Translations under genes and position numbers: made by a program | The notes under the pieces: generated by a model | Told to the model about the DNA's origin: nothing | Databases searched by the model: none | What the model saw: the letters and a program-made list of their open reading frames with translations, nothing else | Source: a virus | DNA: 13,110 bases | UHGV virus genome: UHGV-0162637 | Strand: one strand, 5' to 3' | Shown here: piece by piece, positions 4,672 through 13,060 of the stretch | How the letters are laid out: each line of letters opens with the position of its first letter | Position numbering within the stretch: position 1 is the first letter of the stretch

Positions 4672-5253
4672 ATGAACAACTCATGGTGGCAGGAACTAAT
4701 GCATTTTTTCCTGCAAGGAATGACACTTAAACAGTTGATTCATATGCTAATCATCCTGATCATATTGATTATTGTTATGCCGGTAAGCGTAAAAGAATGG
4801 ATAAACCTGCATAATCCAGAAATCCTTCCTCATTATTGGATGTATTACATCCTGTTGTTCTGCGTTAGCTATGTGCTTAACGGTGTTGTTAATTCCGCTT
4901 ATCACGCTGTGACTGAAAGAATTGAGGTATCCGCTGCTCAGAAGCGCAAATCTAAAGAAGAAAAATATGTGCAAGATTTGTTTGATTCGTTAACTCTTGG
5001 AGAAAGAGCGTATTTGGCATTCGCTGTAGCCGCGAATAACCAGCTAAAGACAGAAAAGGGAAGCCATGAAGCAATCTCATTGCTCGAAAAAGGGCTTCTT
5101 ATTCGGATACCTTCTGCTACTGGATATCCTGAAATCGACCGTTTTGTTATCCCTGAACGCTATAGAAATGAGTGCTACATTAGGTTTGCTGGGAAGAAAG
5201 ACAGCCTTATGGATGAACTTATCGCTCAGGATAAGCATGGCAAAAACAAGTAA
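4672..5253 (+). CDS. sieB: SieB-like superinfection exclusion protein B (193 aa), membrane anchored
   Basis: Only plus-strand gene inside the leftward operon, between ral/orf28 and the N-like gene as sieB is in lambda and P22 (recalled). N-terminal hydrophobic segments then a charged C-terminal domain. AT-rich. Family assignment is from position, size and topology, not alignment. Confidence 0.65.
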   Translation: MNNSWWQELMHFFLQGMTLKQLIHMLIILIILIIVMPVSVKEWINLHNPEILPHYWMYYILLFCVSYVLNGVVNSAYHAVTERIEVSAAQKRKSKEEKYVQDLFDSLTLGERAYLAFAVAANNQLKTEKGSHEAISLLEKGLLIRIPSATGYPEIDRFVIPERYRNECYIRFAGKKDSLMDELIAQDKHGKNK

Positions 5254-5269
5254 TTAGCAAATGAATTTA

Positions 5270-5542
5270 TCATCTCGCCGTCAGTTGTTTTGATTTCCGG
5301 TAGCCTGCCGAGTAAATGGCTACGTTTGGCAGGCAAATACTTCCACTGCATTCTTCTGCCTTCTTGCAGCGAAGGCTTCCGAGTGATGCTGCTTTGTCTG
5401 CTCTGACGCAACCAGAGAGCTTTAACGCAATTTTTCGCGCCAGTGCTTCATTACTGCGTCGCTCGGCAATAAGTTCTGCTCTGCGAGCTTTGTAGCGGCT
5501 TTTTGCCGTACCTTTGGATTCTTTCCAGACAATGGTTACCAT
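5270..5542 (-). CDS. N: N-like transcription antitermination protein (P22 gp24 family), 90 aa
   Basis: ATG at 5542 with AAGGAG 7 nt upstream. Arginine-rich N-terminal motif (GTAKSRYKARRAELIAERR) and C-terminus ...YSAGYRKSKQLTAR resemble P22 gp24 (recalled). First gene downstream of the PL/nutL region. Confidence 0.75.
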   Translation of the reverse strand: MVTIVWKESKGTAKSRYKARRAELIAERRSNEALARKIALKLSGCVRADKAASLGSLRCKKAEECSGSICLPNVAIYSAGYRKSKQLTAR

Positions 5543-5652
5543 GATGGTCTCCTTTAAGTGGCTTTGGCGCATGACGCGTCGAGGTGCTTATCTTCTCGAT
5601 CGCTGTCTTGCAGCTGCAATTCGCGCCATCCCCAAAACCACTCAAGTTCTGG

Positions 5653-5693
5653 TCTCAACGGTTAGGTTGAGAGTTCGTAGATGTTAAAGAGCC
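5653..5693 (-). promoter_or_regulatory. putative nutL (boxA plus boxB hairpin)
   Basis: Minus strand reads GCTCTTTAACA (boxA, matching the rrn/lambdoid boxA consensus) followed 10 nt later by a 7-bp stem (TCTCAAC/GTTGAGA) with loop CTAACC. Located in the leader between PL and the N-like gene. Confidence 0.5.
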
Positions 5694-5729
5694 TGCCAAT
5701 CTGTTCCGTTTGGCTTCCAGTCTCCTGCT

Positions 5730-5810
5730 GATGGCTTAAATTTAAGACTTCTTAATTTGTTGGTCAAGTGTATTTTTGAAGAAAACTTAATTTTATGGGC
5801 GTGAATTTAG
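5730..5810 (-). promoter_or_regulatory. OL/PL region: leftward early promoter with P22-type operator
   Basis: Minus strand has -35 TTGACC (plus 5762-5767), a 17-nt spacer and -10 TAAATT (plus 5739-5744). The palindromic operator AATTTAAGACTTCTTAATTT (5738-5757) carries the TTAAG/CTTAA half-sites of P22 C2 operators and overlaps the promoter. Confidence 0.5.
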
Positions 5811-5832
5811 TTTGTCTTTGATTTTTAACGGG

Positions 5833-5857
5833 AAATAAAAAAGGGGCGAAAGCCCCT
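5833..5857 (-). terminator. intrinsic terminator immediately after the repressor gene
   Basis: Minus strand: TAA stop, then GGGGC-TTTC-GCCCC hairpin followed by TTTTTTATTT. Classic rho-independent terminator. Confidence 0.75.
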
Positions 5858-6507
5858 TAAGGAAGGTTTGCTAGCTTGGCATCAACGACAACGCCAATGA
5901 TTTTACAGTTCCCATTGATTTCAATCATTGGGTATTGTGGATTGAGTGGTTTCAGGAATTTTCTACCGGCATCAATAACTAACTTTTTGAATGTCGCCTC
6001 GTTTTCTCCTTCAAGTTTGGCGACTACCAGCTTTCCATTACGTGGTTCGACTTCTGGGTCGACGAGAATAATCATCCCCTCAGGAATACTCAGTCCTGCC
6101 GGGGCAGTCATTGAATCGCCTTTAACGTCGAGCCAAAAAGAGTCTTCAGAACAATCTACCGTTGTGTCGTACCAGTTATCTATTGCACGCCTATGATATG
6201 GCTCTACAGCTTCCATCCAACATCCTGCGCTTACCCAACTAATTAGAGGATACGAACCTCTTGGATCATGCCTGCTGTGATAGGCAATGTTTGAAAGACT
6301 ATCCTCTCCTTTCAACAGGTAATCAGGGGAGCACTGCAAAGCCTTGGCTAAGGCCAATAGGTTTTCGCCATTGGGCTCAGTTTCAGATCGCTCCCATTGG
6401 GAAATAGCAACATTAGACACGCCAACCATCTTTCCAAGGGCAGCCTGCCTAATCTTGAGTTCTTTTCTGCGAGCGCGAATACGCTCACCCATCAGTTGTG
6501 TATTCAT
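5857..6507 (-). CDS. c2: C2/CI-type prophage repressor (HTH plus S24 LexA-like autopeptidase domain), P22 C2 family
   Basis: 216-aa product MNTQLMGERIRARRKELKIRQAALGKMVGVSNVAISQWERSE...GVVVDAKLANLP matches my recollection of P22 C2 nearly throughout. Divergent from cro across an operator region. Confidence 0.9.
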   Translation of the reverse strand: MNTQLMGERIRARRKELKIRQAALGKMVGVSNVAISQWERSETEPNGENLLALAKALQCSPDYLLKGEDSLSNIAYHSRHDPRGSYPLISWVSAGCWMEAVEPYHRRAIDNWYDTTVDCSEDSFWLDVKGDSMTAPAGLSIPEGMIILVDPEVEPRNGKLVVAKLEGENEATFKKLVIDAGRKFLKPLNPQYPMIEINGNCKIIGVVVDAKLANLP

Positions 6508-6587
6508 AGTTAAGACATCTTAAATAAACTTGACTTAAGATTCCTTTGGTGGATAATTTAAGTGTTCTTTAATTTCGGAGCGAGTCT
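6508..6587. promoter_or_regulatory. OR operator region with PR (and divergent PRM)
   Basis: Three 18-bp P22-type operators: AGTTAAGACATCTTAAAT (6508-6525), a TTAAG-containing site around 6528-6549, and ATTTAAGTGTTCTTTAAT (6556-6573, as I recall for P22 OR1). PR: -35 TTGACT (6530-6535), -10 GATAAT (6552-6557), GGAG SD before cro. Confidence 0.8.
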
Positions 6588-6773
6588 ATGTACAAAAAAG
6601 ATGTTATTGACCACTTCGGAACCCAGCGTGCTGTTGCTAAAGCACTAGGCATTAGCGATGCAGCAGTCTCTCAGTGGAAAGAAGTTATCCCAGAGAAAGA
6701 CGCCTATCGATTGGAAATCGTTACAGCTGGCGCCCTGAAGTATCAAGAAAGTGCTTACCGCCAAGCGGCATAA
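6588..6773 (+). CDS. cro: Cro repressor (P22 Cro family), 61 aa
   Basis: MYKKDVIDHFGTQRAVAKALGISDAAVSQWKEVIPEKDAYRLEIVTAGALKYQESAYRQAA matches P22 Cro as recalled; transcribed rightward from PR. Confidence 0.9.
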   Translation: MYKKDVIDHFGTQRAVAKALGISDAAVSQWKEVIPEKDAYRLEIVTAGALKYQESAYRQAA

Positions 6774-6780
6774 GCAAATT

Positions 6781-6820
6781 GCTCTTTAACAGTTCTGGCC
6801 TTTCACCTCTAACCGGGTGA
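6781..6820 (+). promoter_or_regulatory. putative nutR (boxA plus boxB hairpin)
   Basis: GCTCTTTAACA (6781-6791), identical to the boxA of the putative nutL, followed 11 nt later by hairpin TCACC-TCTAACCG-GGTGA. The loop shares CTAACC with the nutL hairpin loop. Confidence 0.5.
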
Positions 6821-6888
6821 GCAAACATCAGCGGCAAATCCATTGGGTGTGCCGCTATAACTCAATACCAATATAGGAAAATTAACAA

Positions 6889-7185
6889 ATGGCACAAGCA
6901 AGCTACAGCAAGCCAACACAGCGAGAAATTGATCGCGCTGAAACTGATTTACTCATCAACCTGTCAACGCTTACCCAGCGCGGTCTGGCAAAGATGATTG
7001 GCTGTCATGAATCGAAGATAAGCAGAACGGACTGGAGATTTATTGCTTCGGTCTTGTGTGCTTTCGGAATGGCATCAGACATCAGTCCGATTAGCAGGGC
7101 TTTTAAGTATGCGCTTGATGAAATCACAAAGAAAAAATCCCCGGCCGCCACCGAGGATTTTAAGCAAATTGATATGCAATTCTGA
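6889..7185 (+). CDS. cII: CII-like transcriptional activator (lambda CII / P22 C1 family), 98 aa
   Basis: AGGAAA SD; C-terminus ...TKKKSPAATEDFKQIDMQF parallels lambda CII ...TNKKRPAATERSEQIQMEF (recalled); central HTH-like segment; canonical position after cro and nutR. Confidence 0.85.
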   Translation: MAQASYSKPTQREIDRAETDLLINLSTLTQRGLAKMIGCHESKISRTDWRFIASVLCAFGMASDISPISRAFKYALDEITKKKSPAATEDFKQIDMQF

Positions 7186-7217
7186 GGGAATTACTGGATC
7201 AATCCACAGGAGTAATT

Positions 7218-7379
7218 ATGACAAAACGTCGTAAGAAATACCAGGAAAAAGAAGAGATTCGACACCCTGATTCACCTGAGGGATTAGTGGTAGCCGCAGC
7301 AAATAACAGGGCGTTCGCAGAGCGCCTTGTTGGTGTTTACAGACTAGCCAAAGCAGGAGTGAAACATGGGCGTCGTTAA
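7218..7379 (+). CDS. hypothetical small basic protein (53 aa) between cII and the O-like gene
   Basis: ATG at 7218 preceded by ACAGGAG at 6 nt; product MTKRRKKYQEKEEIRHPDSPEGLV... . Its 3' end overlaps the O-like start by 14 nt. Below the ORF-track size cut-off. Confidence 0.4.
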   Translation: MTKRRKKYQEKEEIRHPDSPEGLVVAAANNRAFAERLVGVYRLAKAGVKHGRR

Positions 7380-8256
7380 GTTAGCTGATTACAGGCATAA
7401 CCCTGTACAACATCAGGAGGCATCCAGTATGGGGTATGTCTCTATACACCGCCAGTTTATGGACAGCAGGCTCTATAAGGACTCTCAGGCAGTACATCTT
7501 TGGCTTCACTTAATCCTCAAGGCTAATCACGAATCTACTGTCGTCAATACGGATATCGGTCCGATAACTGTTGATCGCGGTCAGATGATAACTGGACGCC
7601 CGTCGCTGGTCAGAGAAACATTCATTCCAGACAACAAAGTTCGGAGCTTATTACGGACTTTTGAGTCGAAAGGGATGCTTAATATTTGCTCGATGGGGAA
7701 GAAATTTAGCCTGTTTACAATTGTTAAATATGACGATTTTCAGGCAAAAAATTGTCCAACGGTTGTCCAACGATTGTCCAACGCAACCCCCAGTAATGGC
7801 GCGGCTCTCAGCGGAGATTGTCCAACGGTTGTCCAACGATTGTCCATAAACAATAATATAAATAATATCTCTAATACTGACGTATTAGAGAGTACCGCAG
7901 CAGACAAAAAGTCTGACAAGAAAAAACCTTCCGTTAGCTGTCAGGATGTTGTCGATGCTTACCACGAAATCCTTCCTGAAGCGCCAAGAATCCGCGCACT
8001 GAATGACAAGCGTAAAAACCAGATCCGAACGTTCTGGCGCAAAGCCGGAGTAATAACACGTCAACTTGACGGGCATGGGTTCACGATGCAGGACTGGAGA
8101 AATTATTTGAGCTACGTTGGCGAAAATTGCCGATGGATGTTCGAAGAGCGCCCAAACCATCAACGCGGAACCGTCTGGCACAAAAAGGGATTTGATTTCC
8201 TGCTTAACGATAATACCTACCTGAAAGTTCGTGAGGGTGAACACGATGACCGATAA
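7366..8256 (+). CDS. O: replication initiator protein (lambda O-like), origin iterons embedded in the gene
   Basis: Position after cII; the iteron cluster in mid-gene is translated as the repeat CPTVVQRLSN. AGGAG SD before ATG 7366; an alternative in-frame ATG at 7429 has an AGGAGG SD, so the true start may be 7429. Confidence 0.8.
   Translation: MGVVKLADYRHNPVQHQEASSMGYVSIHRQFMDSRLYKDSQAVHLWLHLILKANHESTVVNTDIGPITVDRGQMITGRPSLVRETFIPDNKVRSLLRTFESKGMLNICSMGKKFSLFTIVKYDDFQAKNCPTVVQRLSNATPSNGAALSGDCPTVVQRLSINNNINNISNTDVLESTAADKKSDKKKPSVSCQDVVDAYHEILPEAPRIRALNDKRKNQIRTFWRKAGVITRQLDGHGFTMQDWRNYLSYVGENCRWMFEERPNHQRGTVWHKKGFDFLLNDNTYLKVREGEHDDR
7753..7880. repeat. lambdoid replication origin: six iterons plus AT-rich region
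   Basis: TTGTCCAACG at 7753, 7764 and 7775, then again at 7818 and 7829, with a variant TTGTCCATAA at 7840 (11-bp periodicity, two clusters 33 bp apart), followed by an AT-rich stretch 7850-7880. Same architecture as lambda ori inside O. Confidence 0.8.
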
Positions 8257-8788
8257 TTTTTATGCGCCGCCCCATAGCATCGAGGCAGAGCAGGCGGTGA
8301 TTGGTGGATTGCTTCTGGATGATGACAGCAGTGAGCGCGTCCAGAAAGTTCTGGCGATGCTGAAGCCTGATTCATTTTACAGCCGACCACACAAAATCCT
8401 TTTCGAAGAAATAACCAGAATGCACCGGGAGCAAAAGCCAGTAGATGGCCTGACGCTTTTCGATGAACTGGAGCGTAAATCGTTAACGGTGTCTGTTGGC
8501 GGTTTTGCTTATATCGCTGAGATCGCAAAGAACACGCCAAGCGCAGCAAACATCGTTGCCTATGCAATGCAGGTTCGTGAAACCGCAATGGAACGCTACG
8601 CCATCAACCGCATGACTGAAGCGACGGAATTGCTCTATCTCACAGTAAAAGCCGCCGGTGTGTGGGCGGGTGGCATTGAAACACCTTCGGTGGAAACTCC
8701 ATCGGAAGGTTCAAAATTTTTTGGTTTTGATATGGATAACGAATTCATCAGTGGTTTTGATGTAGGAGCATGGGGAAAATTACTCTGA
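8246..8788 (+). CDS. DnaB-family replicative helicase, N-terminal domain only (truncated, likely non-functional fragment)
   Basis: ATG 8246 with GAGGG SD, overlapping the O stop. Residues PPHSIEAEQAVIGGLLLD...SVGGFAYIAEIAKNTPSAANIVAYA align with the E. coli DnaB N-terminal domain (recalled). Similarity ends after about 140 aa and the ORF stops at 181 aa; the RecA-like ATPase domain is absent. Confidence 0.7.
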   Translation: MTDNFYAPPHSIEAEQAVIGGLLLDDDSSERVQKVLAMLKPDSFYSRPHKILFEEITRMHREQKPVDGLTLFDELERKSLTVSVGGFAYIAEIAKNTPSAANIVAYAMQVRETAMERYAINRMTEATELLYLTVKAAGVWAGGIETPSVETPSEGSKFFGFDMDNEFISGFDVGAWGKLL

Positions 8789-9690
8789 TGGCTAAAAATG
8801 AATTTAAACCATTTGCAACTGGCTCTGGTGCTAACGTAACAACTCAGACAGACTGGGAATCATTACCTGTCCTATCTGCTGGCTTTACATCGGGGAAGGC
8901 ATCAAGTGCTCAGGTGAACAAAGGTCTGAGGCAAGGAACGGCAATGGCGGCTGCTGTGGGGCAGTTTATCGCAGATAATACCAGTGAGGATGTGAAAGAT
9001 AATGGTGATATTGCGGGGCTCTCTGCGCAATTAGCGAGTGCGGTAGAGCAGGCTGCAACAGGACGGCTTATTGGTGTTCGCACAATAACGACATCCGGGA
9101 CTTATACGCCAACCCCAGGAACGAAAAGCATTATTGTTGAAGTCCAAGGCGCAGGCGGAGGAGGGGGCGGGGTTGGTACAACTAACTCTACCAGTGTTGC
9201 AGTTGGGTGTGGAGGGGGAGGTGGCGCCTACGCTAAATCCCGTATCACCAATTTAGACTCAGCATATACTGTAACCATTGGAGCTGGTGGAGCTGGTGGG
9301 GTTAACGGTAATGGAGGAAACGGTGGTGGATCTTCTTTCGGATCTATAACCGCTGGCGGTGGATTTGGTGGTGGTTCAGGAAATGGGGTACCTCCTATTA
9401 TTCAGAACTCACCAGGAATTCCTATAGCATCCGGAGGTAATATTTTAAATCTCTCTGGAGAGAATCCAACTATTGGCATGGCTATATCGACTAGCTCTAT
9501 CATCTCTGGTGGCGGAGGTAATAGTCCATTAGGTGTGGGTGGTAATCCACACGGCTCAGCGGGTATCGGTGTATTGCCGACTGGTTTCGGGGCTGGGGGC
9601 GGTGGGGCTAACGCATATGTGAATAATGCCACCCAATATAACGGAGCCGCCGGTGGTAATGGTATTGTTCTTATCTGGGAGTATGCATGA
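8788..9690 (+). CDS. glycine-rich protein (about 300 aa), possibly phage tail-fibre-like; function unknown
   Basis: Long intact ORF; ATG 8788 overlaps the stop of the helicase fragment (TGATG), with an alternative in-frame ATG at 8770. Non-glycine-rich N-terminal region of about 130 aa, then poly-Gly and GxGG tracts to the C-terminus ...GIVLIWEYA. Family assignment is tentative. Confidence 0.65.
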   Translation: MAKNEFKPFATGSGANVTTQTDWESLPVLSAGFTSGKASSAQVNKGLRQGTAMAAAVGQFIADNTSEDVKDNGDIAGLSAQLASAVEQAATGRLIGVRTITTSGTYTPTPGTKSIIVEVQGAGGGGGGVGTTNSTSVAVGCGGGGGAYAKSRITNLDSAYTVTIGAGGAGGVNGNGGNGGGSSFGSITAGGGFGGGSGNGVPPIIQNSPGIPIASGGNILNLSGENPTIGMAISTSSIISGGGGNSPLGVGGNPHGSAGIGVLPTGFGAGGGGANAYVNNATQYNGAAGGNGIVLIWEYA

Positions 9691-9866
9691 TGAAATATGC
9701 ATTGGTAGAAAATGATGTTGTGATTAACGTTATATTATGGAACGGCGATGGAAAACAATACGATGATTATCTCTGTATAAAGCTTGACGACAATAGCGTT
9801 GTTGGTGTTGGGTATACATATTCAGAGGGTAGGTTTTTGCCCCCTGAATATATTGATGAATTATAG
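9687..9866 (+). CDS. hypothetical small protein (59 aa) coupled to the glycine-rich gene
   Basis: ATG overlaps the stop of the glycine-rich ORF (ATGATGA); product MMKYALVENDVVINVILWNGDGKQYDDYLCIKLDDNSVVGVGYTYSEGRFLPPEYIDEL. Its 3' end overlaps the convergent acyltransferase stop by 6 nt. Below the ORF-track size cut-off. Confidence 0.35.
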   Translation: MMKYALVENDVVINVILWNGDGKQYDDYLCIKLDDNSVVGVGYTYSEGRFLPPEYIDEL

Positions 9867-10955
9867 TGGTGAAATATTTTTACTCATTATTAGTCTCCCT
9901 GTTCTTATAAATTTCTTTTCTACATATCTATATGATAAATCAGAAAAGACAACTAGCAAAAGAATGAAAGCGAAGAAGTATATAACTTTGTTTTCGTAAA
10001 TGACGGTGTTAAGGGAGAGTTTGTTCAAAACCTCCCTTGTTACATGTAGTAATGGTAAATGGCAAAGATAAATGCTATAAGATCTATCCCCAATCCAGTC
10101 CAGCATTTTATATGCTGGATTATCTTTTTTATCTACCACACCACCACTAATAAAACATAGAAATAATAATGCACCAGCAAAACCAATCGCAGGTAATGTC
10201 AATCTATAGTTAAAGTGCTGAGGGGCAACGAGTAAAACAAAAATGCAAACTATAATAAAAAATAGTCTTGTGCATTTATTGCTTACATAACACTTGCTTC
10301 CAGTTATGAATATAATTGCTCCCAGAAAGAATGCTTGTGGTCTAATCCACCAACCAATGGATTGATAGTACATTTGAGTTACTGGCAGGAAAGATGCAAT
10401 AGCTACTATGAATATGAAAATAATCGTCAGATTTTTCCTGTTAAAGAGCAGCATGATTGCCGCAATTATAGCATACAGTTGCCATTCCAAAGATAGAGAC
10501 CAGGTCACCGCATTCATTTGGTCACAATCATTTGCTGTTACTGCGCACCTATAGAAGTGGATATTAGAATAACCAAGTAGGGATGTATATAACGTAGTGA
10601 ATGATTTAAGAGGTGAAACACCCCAAGAAGGTTGCATAAAATAAGAGATTATTATACAGATGGTGCCCCATACAAGTAAGCATGGGGCTAGCCTAAATAT
10701 TCTTTTAGATAAAAATAATAAAAATATTTTAGTTGTTCTGCCGGTTTTTTTTATTTCCCCAGTTAAGCTTTTAGCCATCAAATATCCAGATATAGCCAAA
10801 AATATATCAACTCCAGCCCAATAATTAACGTAATTAAAACTGCTCAAATACCAATCTGGCGAAGGTAATCTATTTCTATAATGTTGTAGAATAACCATTA
10901 TTATGGCTACCGCCCTTAGCGCTTGAATGTCAAGGTTTTTATTATTTAGGGTCAT
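9861..10955 (-). CDS. acyltransferase family 3 integral membrane protein (O-antigen acetylase-like, Oac/OafA type)
   Basis: 364-aa polytopic membrane protein with the conserved N-terminal motif LDIQALRAVAIIMVILQHY and many hydrophobic segments. Visibly AT-rich compared with flanking DNA. Lies at the prophage/host boundary where P22- and Sf6-like phages carry O-antigen modification genes (recalled). Confidence 0.85.
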   Translation of the reverse strand: MTLNNKNLDIQALRAVAIIMVILQHYRNRLPSPDWYLSSFNYVNYWAGVDIFLAISGYLMAKSLTGEIKKTGRTTKIFLLFLSKRIFRLAPCLLVWGTICIIISYFMQPSWGVSPLKSFTTLYTSLLGYSNIHFYRCAVTANDCDQMNAVTWSLSLEWQLYAIIAAIMLLFNRKNLTIIFIFIVAIASFLPVTQMYYQSIGWWIRPQAFFLGAIIFITGSKCYVSNKCTRLFFIIVCIFVLLVAPQHFNYRLTLPAIGFAGALLFLCFISGGVVDKKDNPAYKMLDWIGDRSYSIYLCHLPLLHVTREVLNKLSLNTVIYENKVIYFFAFILLLVVFSDLSYRYVEKKFIRTGRLIMSKNISPL

Positions 10956-11887: not shown

Positions 11888-13060
11888 TTGCTGTTGAAAC
11901 GCCGTCTTATTATTGCTGCTTCTTTGTTCGTTTTTAACTTATCGTCTGGTTTTGCGGCGGAAAACATTCCTTTTTCACCTCAGCCTCCAGAGATTCATGC
12001 CGGGTCCTGGGTATTGATGGATTACACCACCGGTCAGATCCTCACCGCGGTTAATGAGCATCAACAGCGCAATCCCGCCAGCCTGACAAAGCTGATGACG
12101 GGTTATGTCGTGGATCGCGCTATCGATAGTCATCGCATTACGCCAGACGATATTGTCACCGTGGGGCGCGATGCGTGGGCGAAAGATAATCCGGTGTTTG
12201 TCGGTTCTTCACTGATGTTTTTGAAAGAGGGCGATCGCGTATCGGTACGTGATTTAAGCCGTGGTTTAATTGTGGATTCTGGAAATGACGCTTGTGTTGC
12301 TCTGGCTGACTATATTGCCGGTGGGCAACGGCAGTTTGTTGAAATGATGAACAACTATGCCGAGAAGCTGCATCTCAAGGATACGCATTTTGAAACAGTG
12401 CATGGTCTGGATGCACCTGGCCAGCATAGCTCGGCTTATGATTTAGCTGTGCTTTCTCGCGCTATCATCCACGGCGAGCCCGAGTTTTATCATATGTACA
12501 GTGAGAAAAGTCTCACCTGGAACGGTATCACCCAGCAAAACCGTAACGGGTTGTTGTGGGATAAAACCATGAATGTTGACGGCCTGAAAACGGGTCATAC
12601 TTCTGGTGCCGGGTTTAATCTCATTGCTTCGGCTGTAGATGGGCAGCGTCGTCTCATTGCAGTGGTAATGGGGGCTGACAGTGCAAAAGGTCGTGAGGAA
12701 GAGGCAAGAAAATTACTGCGTTGGGGGCAACAAAACTTTACTACGGTGCAAATTTTGCACCGTGGGAAAAAGGTCGGAACGGAACGCATCTGGTATGGCG
12801 ATAAAGAAAATATCGACCTGGGAACGGAACAAGAGTTCTGGATGGTGCTACCGAAAGCCGAAATTCCACATATCAAAGCCAAATATACCCTTGATGGTAA
12901 AGAGCTCACCGCGCCAATTAGCGCCCATCAGCGGGTAGGGGAAATTGAACTTTACGACCGTGATAAACAGGTGGCGCACTGGCCGCTGGTTACCCTGGAA
13001 TCTGTCGGGGAAGGCGGCATGTTTTCCCGCCTGAGTGATTATTTCCACCATAAGGCCTGA
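11888..13060 (+). CDS. dacD: D-alanyl-D-alanine carboxypeptidase DacD (penicillin-binding protein 6b)
   Basis: 390-aa product with signal peptide and the SxxK (ASLTK), SGN and KTG motifs of class-C low-molecular-weight PBPs; matches E. coli DacD as recalled. The start is a TTG at 11888, so the exact start is uncertain. Confidence 0.9.
   Translation: MLLKRRLIIAASLFVFNLSSGFAAENIPFSPQPPEIHAGSWVLMDYTTGQILTAVNEHQQRNPASLTKLMTGYVVDRAIDSHRITPDDIVTVGRDAWAKDNPVFVGSSLMFLKEGDRVSVRDLSRGLIVDSGNDACVALADYIAGGQRQFVEMMNNYAEKLHLKDTHFETVHGLDAPGQHSSAYDLAVLSRAIIHGEPEFYHMYSEKSLTWNGITQQNRNGLLWDKTMNVDGLKTGHTSGAGFNLIASAVDGQRRLIAVVMGADSAKGREEEARKLLRWGQQNFTTVQILHRGKKVGTERIWYGDKENIDLGTEQEFWMVLPKAEIPHIKAKYTLDGKELTAPISAHQRVGEIELYDRDKQVAHWPLVTLESVGEGGMFSRLSDYFHHKA

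What the first reader, a model, noticed from the sequence alone, without database searches (positions are those of the whole stretch)
6781..6820. Putative nutR downstream of cro
Counterpart of the nutL site: boxA GCTCTTTAACA then hairpin TCACC-TCTAACCG-GGTGA. A further inverted repeat, AGCGGCA...TGCCGCT (6830-6857), follows and may be a tR1-like pause or termination structure before cII.
Basis: partly seen in the sequence, partly recalled or inferred. Interest (0 to 1): 0.35.

Follow-up and report, generated by a model that had tools for sequence, protein, structure and literature searches.

The report
Phage 21-type nutR antitermination site

Summary
Window 5351-7225 is the imm21-type early region of a lambdoid prophage: 98.0% identical to phage 21 and 99.1% to mEp235. 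The cro-cII spacer 6760-6867, which holds every element of the finding, is 100% identical to both phage 21 GenBank records. Those records annotate boxA-R, the nutR stem-loop and terminator tR1 at exactly these positions.

- **boxA:** UGCUCUUUA (6780-6788) is the rrn-consensus form.
- **nutL:** a second copy (5653-5693, minus strand) has the same boxA and loop. Five of its seven stem pairs are changed on both sides.
- **N:** the adjacent N gene (5270-5542, minus strand) contains the exact 22-residue peptide solved in complex with phi21 boxB (PDB 1NYB).

In IMG/VR contigs, phage 21-type N and this boxB co-occur wherever the flanking DNA allows a test.

The second inverted repeat (6830-6856) is a stable hairpin (-15.9 kcal/mol) with no U-tract. 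It matches the annotated tR1 and is presumably part of a Rho-dependent terminator, but neither covariation nor composition proves that.

Novelty: already known.

The parts
6530..6557 (+). pR-like promoter (TTGACT-16-GATAAT) that drives the cro-nutR-cII transcript
   Evidence: Consensus scan scores 10 of 12. It lies in the operator region annotated in phage 21.
6588..6773 (+). cro (61 aa, P22_Cro family)
   Evidence: ORF list. Pfam PF14549, E = 5.7e-28.
6780..6788 (+). boxA-R, UGCUCUUUA (rrn-consensus form). The identity with nutL extends to 6791 (GCTCTTTAACA).
   Evidence: Phage 21 annotates boxA-R at the equivalent of window 6781-6788. The consensus is quoted in PMC2724277.
6789..6801 (+). 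13-nt boxA-boxB spacer. By analogy with lambda and H-19B it is the NusA and Rho contact region. It is the most variable part of the site among relatives.
   Evidence: Variants. The NusA and Rho contacts are inferred from PMC2724277 and PMC3526286.
6802..6821 (+). boxB-R RNA hairpin: stem UUCACCU/GGGUGAG (7 bp, with U-G pairs at both ends) and hexaloop CUAACC (6809-6814)
   Evidence: Folds. Five of 7 pairs are compensated against nutL. The phage 21 'nutR stem_loop' corresponds to window 6803-6820. The CUAACC hexaloop of phi21 boxB is in PDB 1NYB.
6822..6829 (+). G-free linker CAAACAUC, in the position of lambda rutB
   Evidence: Composition. Lambda rutB annotation.
6830..6856 (+). Hairpin 2, the annotated tR1 hairpin: AGCGGCA-A-AUCC-AUU-GGGU-G-UGCCGCU, with no U-tract after it
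   Evidence: -15.9 kcal/mol, z = -4.2. AJ237660 'terminator tR1' corresponds to window 6830-6855. VT1-Sakai annotates a 'putative rho-dependent terminator' here. No intrinsic terminator is predicted.
6857..6888 (+). A-rich, G-poor tail (C/G 2.5) with CAAU repeats and the cII Shine-Dalgarno sequence. It is the presumed Rho release zone. Record OL657228 marks tR1 at the equivalent of window 6868-6871.
   Evidence: The release-zone role is inferred.
6889..7185 (+). cII (98 aa), the first gene beyond tR1
   Evidence: Pfam PF05269, E = 2.7e-33.
6898..6911 (-). CII-binding site TTGC-N6-TTGC of pRE. The pRE transcript runs antisense through tR1, nutR and cro.
   Evidence: Sequence. Annotation in phage 21 and mEp235.
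5270..5542 (-). N gene (90 aa from the ATG at 5542). Residues 1-64 are identical to phage 21 N. Residues 8-29 are the 1NYB peptide. The C-terminus is of the 933W/VT2-Sakai type.
   Evidence: Pfam N_peptide, E = 4.1e-17.
5653..5693 (-). nutL: boxA GGCUCUUUA (5693-5685), a 12-nt spacer, and boxB UCUCAAC-CUAACC-GUUGAGA (5672-5653)
   Evidence: Phage 21 annotates boxA-L and nutL at equivalent positions.
5739..5767 (-). pL-like promoter (TTGACC-17-TAAATT)
   Evidence: The phage 21 pL start corresponds to window 5732.
5857..6507 (-). cI-type repressor (216 aa, HTH plus S24 peptidase) that controls pL and pR

Best explanation
Window 6780-6821 is the nutR site of a phage 21-type N antitermination system. 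The hairpin at 6830-6856 and the A-rich tail to 6888 form the tR1 region that this system overrides.

Proposed mechanism:
1. After prophage induction, RNA polymerase starts at pR and transcribes cro and then the nut RNA.
2. boxA (UGCUCUUUA) is bound by NusB/NusE.
3. The boxB hairpin, with its CUAACC hexaloop, is bound by the arginine-rich N-terminus of the N protein. N is made from the pL transcript, which carries the twin site nutL.
4. Together with NusA and NusG, the looped-out RNA-protein complex stays on the elongating polymerase and makes it resistant to terminators.
5. Without N, a fraction of transcripts ends in the cro-cII spacer at tR1. There the stable U-tract-less hairpin and the G-poor flanks most likely support Rho-dependent termination.
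6. With N, transcription continues into cII and the replication genes.

What is shown here: the sequence identity to phage 21 nutR and tR1, the anatomy, the compensated nutL/nutR stems, and the cognate N in cis.

What is inferred from the lambda, H-19B and phi21 literature: Nus factor binding, antitermination activity, and the Rho dependence of tR1.
For: **Identity to phage 21.**
- The cro-cII spacer 6760-6867 is 100% identical to phage 21 records OL657228 and AJ237660.
- Window 5351-7225 is 98.0% identical to phage 21 and 99.1% to mEp235.
- Those records annotate boxA-R, the nutR stem-loop and tR1 at the corresponding positions.
- VT1-Sakai annotates the same sequence as nutR plus a putative Rho-dependent terminator.

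**The site itself.**
- nutL and nutR share an 11-nt boxA and the CUAACC loop. Five of 7 stem pairs differ on both sides, and 98% of cells are paired against 25-51% for slid controls.
- The boxA-plus-loop pattern occurs twice against 0.00 expected.

**The cognate protein.**
- N residues 8-29 equal the peptide of PDB 1NYB, the phi21 N peptide-boxB complex.
- The CUAACC hexaloop of that RNA is described in PMC12550061.

**Co-occurrence in IMG/VR.**
- Of 80 contigs with a phage 21-type N, 72 carry this nutR within 3 kb.
- Of 70 contigs with the exact boxB-R 20-mer, 59 show the phage 21-type arginine-rich motif upstream. Ten of the other 11 lack enough flank. The last, L233, comes from the same contig as L188, which one search had already matched to phage 21 N at 95%.
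- Immunity modules of four different lengths lie between the same nut sites.

**The tR1 hairpin.**
- Hairpin 2 is stable, at -15.9 kcal/mol and z = -4.2.
- It lacks a U-tract, and no intrinsic terminator is predicted in the spacer.
- Lambda has the same layout of boxB, a G-free linker, hairpins and a CAAU-rich tail.
Against:
- Hairpin 2 shows no compensatory double changes among 9 distinct variants. There are only two one-sided changes that keep pairing, and four unpaired cells.
- The C-over-G bias of the spacer (1.33) is weaker than in lambda (2.0), so a rut site is not obvious.
- No Rfam family matches the site, so there is no independent model-based confirmation.
- The prophage has lost its nin, late and structural genes, so the system may no longer matter biologically in this genome.
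Confidence: 0.92

Rival explanations
1. Hairpin 2 (6830-6856) is an intrinsic, Rho-independent terminator for the cro transcript.
For: It is a stable G+C-rich hairpin of -15.9 kcal/mol directly downstream of cro and nutR. AJ237660 simply calls it 'terminator tR1' without naming a mechanism.
Against: The stem is followed by AUAACUCAAUACC, not a U run. The terminator scan finds nothing in the spacer on the + strand, although it does detect the oop-like and cI-distal terminators nearby. VT1-Sakai annotates the same sequence as Rho-dependent. Lambda tR1 is the prototype Rho-dependent terminator.
Confidence: 0.05
2. Hairpin 2 is not primarily a terminator element. It could be a pause or processing structure that sets cII expression. 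Alternatively its complement could act as a 5'-proximal stabilising hairpin on the antisense pRE transcript, which starts just to its right.
For: [quoted passage not shown] The hairpin is retained in the diverged PA28-type spacer, where a C-G pair becomes U-G, a U-G pair becomes C-G, and an insertion extends the outer stem.
Against: There is no direct evidence and no covariation. The same retention is expected for a tR1 element. This reading does not exclude the terminator role.
Confidence: 0.08
3. The boxA-like motif and the inverted repeats are chance features of an intergenic spacer.
For: A 5-bp inverted repeat as originally described is common by chance. The short motif CTAACCG alone is not enriched, at 3 observed against 0.82 expected. 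A third exact boxA copy sits inside a coding region with no hairpin after it.
Against: The composite pattern is found twice against 0.00 expected. Both nut sites have 7-bp stems with compensatory changes. The spacer is 100% identical to an experimentally studied site, and the cognate N is encoded alongside. The site is conserved across about 70 independent contigs, with variation concentrated in the spacer.
Confidence: 0.01

Closest known systems
nutR and tR1 of coliphage 21 (imm21 region; GenBank OL657228 and AJ237660; phi21 N peptide-boxB structure PDB 1NYB)
   Same: boxA, spacer, boxB, linker and the tR1 hairpin are identical base for base across 6760-6867. The nutL architecture is the same. 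N residues 1-64 are identical, including the peptide solved in 1NYB. cI, cro and cII are about 98% identical at the DNA level.
   Different: There are two substitutions in the tail before cII, at 6868 and 6878. The C-terminal 26 residues of N are of the 933W/VT2-Sakai type rather than the phage 21 type. The flanking modules differ: SieB lies next to N, the replication genes are of a different type, and the prophage carries a deletion.
nutR regions of mEp235, phiv205-1 and VT1-Sakai (phage 21-type N/nut modules in other lambdoid phages)
   Same: mEp235 is 99.9% identical over 6500-7200. VT1-Sakai N is 97.8% identical over its full length and has the same boxB and tR1 hairpin.
   Different: VT1-Sakai and the Stx1a and PA28 phages carry unrelated cI and cro genes between the same nut sites. 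Homology begins at or just after boxA. PA28-type nutR has the loop CUAACA.
Lambda nutR/tR1 (boxA CGCUCUUA, boxB GCCCUGAAAAAGGGC, rutA and rutB, Rho-dependent tR1)
   Same: It has the same position between cro and cII. It has the same order of boxA, spacer, boxB hairpin, G-free linker, hairpins, CAAU-rich tail and cII. By inference it uses the same Nus-factor-dependent mechanism.
   Different: The boxB sequence and geometry differ: lambda has a 5-bp stem with a GAAAA pentaloop, this site a 7-bp stem with a CUAACC hexaloop. boxA here is the rrn-consensus form with an extra U. The C-over-G bias is weaker, at 1.33 against 2.0. The N arginine-rich motifs are not interchangeable; that last point is from my own knowledge of the field and was not tested here.
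E. coli rrn leader antiterminator boxA (UGCUCUUUA)
   Same: The boxA 9-mer is identical to the consensus quoted in PMC2724277.
   Different: rrn antitermination needs no N protein and, according to that paper, its boxB is dispensable. Here boxA is paired with an N-specific boxB.

Membership tests
Lambdoid N-utilisation (nut) site | boxA element matching CGCUCUU(U)A | tested here: met
   UGCUCUUUA lies at 6780-6788, and the exact 11-mer is shared with nutL. It equals the rrn consensus quoted in PMC2724277.
Lambdoid N-utilisation (nut) site | boxB hairpin a short spacer downstream of boxA, with the stem kept by base pairing and the loop sequence conserved between nutL and nutR | tested here: met
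   The spacers are 13 nt (nutR) and 12 nt (nutL). Both stems have 7 bp and both loops read CUAACC. Five of 7 pairs are compensated.
Lambdoid N-utilisation (nut) site | Two copies placed downstream of pL (before N) and downstream of pR and cro (before tR1 and cII) | tested here: met
   Promoter scan, ORFs and Pfam assignments. The layout matches the phage 21 annotation.
Lambdoid N-utilisation (nut) site | Cognate N protein with a matching arginine-rich motif encoded in the same element | tested here: met
   N residues 8-29 are identical to the peptide in 1NYB. N and boxB co-occur in IMG/VR contigs.
Lambdoid N-utilisation (nut) site | N- and Nus-dependent read-through of downstream terminators | not testable with these tools
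   This needs reporter or in vitro transcription assays.
Phage 21 specificity class of boxB | CUAACC hexaloop on a stem identical to phi21 boxB | tested here: met
   100% identity to the phage 21 nutR stem-loop annotation. The hexaloop is described for 1NYB in PMC12550061.
Rho-dependent terminator (tR1 type) | Absence of a canonical intrinsic terminator (a hairpin followed by a U-tract) | tested here: met
   No terminator-like site lies on the + strand of 6774-6888. The hairpin is followed by AUAACUCAAU.
Rho-dependent terminator (tR1 type) | C-rich, G-poor, weakly structured rut region upstream of the release sites | tested here: inconclusive
   The spacer has C/G of 1.33 against 2.0 in lambda. 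The unstructured segments are G-poor (6822-6829 has no G; 6857-6888 has C/G of 2.5), but two stable hairpins occupy 47 of 115 nt.
Rho-dependent terminator (tR1 type) | Rho- and NusG-dependent transcript release, sensitive to bicyclomycin | not testable with these tools
   Only database annotations are available: AJ237660 'terminator tR1' and VT1-Sakai 'putative rho-dependent terminator'.

The most novel reading that the evidence does not exclude
The most novel reading still open is that hairpin 2 (6830-6856) is not simply part of tR1. It could be a dedicated pause or boxC-like element needed for assembly of the phage 21-type N complex. It could also work on the antisense pRE transcript. A related possibility is that the third exact rrn-type boxA copy (TGCTCTTTAACAG at 10439-10451, minus strand, inside the acyltransferase mRNA) is a real Nus-factor site rather than a coding coincidence. 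Nothing here supports these readings beyond position and stability.
Probability: 0.04. Interest if true: 0.3.

Novelty: already known. Interest (0 to 1): 0.06.

Why it matters
It matters little beyond correct annotation. The site identifies the window as carrying an imm21-type early control region whose N/nut specificity is that of phage 21, one of the three classical N-boxB recognition classes, for which an NMR structure exists. It is useful as a landmark: it marks the pR operon leader, and many Stx phages share the nutR-cII module starting at or just after boxA. No open question becomes testable because of it.

Tried and rejected
- **Rfam scan** of the whole window at E up to 1. The only match was a spurious archaeal snoRNA hit inside cro, so no nut family matched.
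- **Loose IMG/VR pattern** GCTCTTTA-N(10-30)-CTAACC. I replaced it with an N-anchored search and an exact-boxB search.
- **Covariation test of hairpin 2.** Only 9 distinct variants were available and none had a double change, so the test was uninformative.
- **Composition test for a rut site.** The C-over-G bias was modest, so the result is inconclusive.
- **Cilley & Williamson 2003.** I tried to read this phi21 N-boxB structure paper by DOI and by PMC id, but it is not held. I relied on secondary descriptions instead.
- **Source genome.** No complete E. coli genome in the collection spans the junction at about 8638.
- **Intrinsic-terminator reading of hairpin 2.** Rejected because there is no U-tract.
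- **Third boxA copy as a nut site.** Rejected because no CUAACC hairpin follows it.

Full report
**1. The observation**

The quoted sequences are present at the stated coordinates.
- GCTCTTTAACA lies at 6781-6791.
- TCACC, TCTAACCG and GGTGA lie at 6803-6807, 6808-6815 and 6816-6820.

Folding extends the first hairpin to seven pairs, U6802-G6821 to U6808-G6815, around a six-base loop CUAACC at 6809-6814. With the preceding T, boxA reads UGCUCUUUA (6780-6788). PMC2724277 gives this as the rrn consensus boxA, against CGCUCUUA in lambda.

The site is far beyond chance.
- The 11-mer with up to one mismatch occurs four times against 0.27 expected.
- boxA-N(8-20)-CTAACCG occurs exactly twice against 0.00 expected in 200 shuffles.
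- The only two CTAA[CT][CA] loops in the window closed by at least 4 bp are these two sites, each with 7 bp.

**2. Context**

The surrounding ORFs form a lambdoid immunity region:

| Feature | Coordinates | Strand | Evidence |
|---|---|---|---|
| N | 5270-5542 | - | Pfam N_peptide, E = 4.1e-17 |
| LexA-type repressor | 5857-6507 | - | HTH plus S24 peptidase |
| cro | 6588-6773 | + | P22_Cro family |
| cII | 6889-7185 | + | Phage_CII family |

pR-like and pL-like promoters face outward from the repressor gene.

On the minus strand, downstream of pL and upstream of N, lies a twin site. Its boxA is GGCUCUUUA (5693-5685). A 12-nt spacer follows, then boxB UCUCAAC-CUAACC-GUUGAGA (5672-5653).

nutL and nutR share boxA and the loop. 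Five of the seven stem pairs differ on both sides, and 98% of cells are paired against 25-51% when the partner is slid. This is the signature of an RNA hairpin whose stem matters as structure and whose loop matters as sequence.

**3. Identity**

- Megablast of 6500-7200 finds phage mEp235 at 99.9%. It finds phage 21, DE3 and lambda imm21 at 96.6%.
- Window 5351-7225 is 98.0% identical to phage 21 and 99.1% to mEp235.
- Across 6760-6867 the window is identical to both phage 21 records. The only differences in the spacer are at 6868 and 6878.
- OL657228 annotates boxA-R (window 6781-6788), the nutR stem-loop (6803-6820) and a tR1 mark (6868-6871).
- AJ237660 annotates nutR, and 'terminator tR1' at window 6830-6855.
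- VT1-Sakai annotates the same sequence as 'putative N-utilization rightward' and 'putative rho-dependent terminator for pR transcript'. It describes its N as similar to phi-21 N.

**4. The cognate protein**

From the ATG at 5542, preceded by AAGGAG, N is 90 aa. Residues 1-64 are identical to phage 21 N. [quoted passage not shown] PMC12550061 describes the RNA in that entry as having a CUAACC hexaloop.

The C-terminal 26 residues differ from phage 21 N. They match the N proteins of VT2-Sakai and 933W-type Stx phages at 87-91%. The whole protein is 97.8% identical to VT1-Sakai N. It is therefore a known mosaic N, not a frameshifted one.

**5. Co-inheritance**

- Of 80 IMG/VR contigs encoding a phage 21-type N (88-100% identity), 72 carry this nutR on the opposite strand within 3 kb, and nearly all carry the nutL.
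- Variation among these contigs concentrates in the boxA-boxB spacer.
- boxA is nearly invariant. The loop varies only at positions 5 and 6, giving CUAACA in 8 loci and CUAAUC in one.
- Conversely, 59 of 70 contigs containing the exact boxB-R 20-mer show the phage 21-type arginine-rich motif upstream.
- Ten of the remaining 11 have too little flank. The last, L233, comes from the same contig as L188, matched to phage 21 N at 95%; my regular expression probably missed a variant motif, which I did not verify.
- The distance between nutR and nutL falls in four classes, about 1.1, 2.3, 2.4 and 2.9 kb. In the annotated phages VT1-Sakai and PA28, unrelated cI and cro genes sit between the same nut sites. 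N, nutL and nutR therefore stay together across immunity swaps.

**6. The second inverted repeat**

It folds as AGCGGCA-A-AUCC-AUU-GGGU-G-UGCCGCU at -15.9 kcal/mol, z = -4.2, with 0 of 200 shuffles as stable.

It is followed by AUAACUCAAUACC rather than a U run. The terminator scan finds nothing in the spacer on the + strand, although it does pick up the oop-like and cI-distal terminators nearby. It is therefore not a canonical intrinsic terminator.

Evidence that the hairpin is maintained as a structure is weak.
- Among nine distinct variants there are no double compensatory changes.
- Two one-sided changes keep pairing (C-G to U-G, and U-G to C-G), and four cells are unpaired.
- The diverged PA28-type version still folds, at -17.0 kcal/mol, with an extended outer stem.

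The spacer's C/G ratio is 1.33, against 2.0 in lambda. The unpaired segments are G-poor: 6822-6829 has no G and 6857-6888 has a ratio of 2.5.

Lambda shows the same layout of boxB, a G-free rutB, hairpins, a CAAU-rich tail and cII. Work on H-19B and lambda shows that nutR and the rut sites of tR1 overlap, and that N-Nus complexes overcome Rho there (PMC3526286; PMC12360218).

I therefore take the hairpin as part of a Rho-dependent tR1, at about 60% confidence for that specific mechanism. This rests on annotation, position and analogy, not on a test.

**7. Mechanism**

Steps 1 to 3 are inferred from the literature. The parts list is shown by the sequence.
1. The pR transcript carries boxA, which binds NusB/NusE, and boxB, which binds the N arginine-rich helix.
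2. With NusA and NusG, the complex stays tethered to RNA polymerase and suppresses termination at tR1 and beyond. This allows expression of cII and the replication genes.
3. Without N, some transcripts stop before cII.

pRE and its CII-binding site TTGC-N6-TTGC (6898-6911, minus strand) lie just to the right, so the region is also transcribed antisense during establishment of lysogeny.

**8. Comparison and novelty**

This is the phage 21 nutR/tR1 itself, carried in a mosaic prophage. It differs from lambda and P22 nut sites in boxB sequence and loop geometry, but not in organisation. Rfam has no matching family. The site is nevertheless annotated in GenBank and has been characterised structurally.

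Verdict: already known, with low interest.

**9. Other things seen**

- *Deleted prophage.* The window is a deletion derivative of a prophage beside dacD.
  - Homology to lambdoid early genes stops at 8638, inside the DnaB-like helicase gene.
  - It resumes at 8636 in a DUF2612/tail-fibre region.
  - These two points lie 27.6 kb apart in the intact prophage of E. coli H9Ecoli.
- *Third boxA copy.* An exact copy of the 13-mer TGCTCTTTAACAG lies in the sense strand of an acyltransferase ORF, at 10439-10451 on the minus strand. No boxB follows it.
- *Mosaic joint.* Matches of 6500-7200 to mEpX1, PA28 and many Stx1a-phage records start exactly at boxA, window 6781; the VT1-Sakai match starts 15 nt later, in the spacer. 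This marks a recombination joint.

Noticed in passing
window 8636-8638 (context 8231-9690): This is an internal deletion junction of the prophage. Homology to the lambdoid early region ends at 8638, inside the DnaB-like helicase gene, whose ORF 8231-8788 is only 185 aa. Homology to a DUF2612/tail-fibre region begins at 8636. In E. coli H9Ecoli these two points are 27.6 kb apart in an intact prophage next to dacD. The window's prophage therefore lacks nin, Q, lysis and morphogenesis genes. No complete E. coli genome in the collection spans this junction.
   Followed up: partly
window 10439-10451, minus strand: A third exact copy of the rrn-type boxA 13-mer TGCTCTTTAACAG, identical to nutR 6780-6792, lies in the sense strand of the 364-aa acyltransferase ORF (9861-10955, minus strand; codons M-L-L-F-N-R). 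Only a weak AU-rich hairpin follows, with no CUAACC loop. It is probably a coding coincidence, but an exact 13-mer is unexpected in 13 kb.
   Followed up: partly
window 5270-5542, minus strand: N is a mosaic. Residues 1-64 are identical to phage 21 N. Residues 65-90 (CSGSICLPNVAIYSAGYRKSKQLTAR) are unrelated to phage 21 N but 87-91% identical to the C-terminus of the N proteins of VT2-Sakai and 933W-type Stx2 phages. The full-length protein is 97.8% identical to VT1-Sakai N.
   Followed up: yes
window 6781 (boxA start): Megablast matches of 6500-7200 to mEpX1, PA28 and many Stx1a-phage records begin exactly at window 6781, the first base of boxA. The VT1-Sakai match begins at 6796, in the spacer. 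The conserved nut boxA thus coincides with a mosaic recombination joint between immunity modules and the nutR-cII module.
   Followed up: partly
L275 (phage PA28) 2993-3111, and L196-L203: PA28-type phages carry nutR with the loop CUAACA, while their nutL keeps CUAACC. Their N arginine-rich motif has KARREELIAERR in place of KARRAELIAERR. Position 6 of the loop therefore tolerates C to A. I did not examine whether the protein change is linked to it.
   Followed up: no
window 4672-5253, plus strand: A SieB-family superinfection-exclusion ORF (193 aa, Pfam PF14163, E = 3.4e-24) lies convergent with N and immediately distal to it. In mEp235 and the H9Ecoli prophage the gene at this position is a 339-nt ORF on the N strand, annotated as Nun (HK022-like) in mEp235.
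   Followed up: partly
window 7134-7161, minus strand: A strong terminator-like hairpin (12 bp followed by a U run) lies antisense to the 3' end of cII. It corresponds to the oop RNA terminator annotated in phage 21 and HK629.
   Followed up: partly
window 11888-13060, plus strand: The chromosomal gene dacD (D-Ala-D-Ala carboxypeptidase) lies here, so the right end of the window is host chromosome. The prophage attachment site lies between the acyltransferase gene and dacD.
   Followed up: partly
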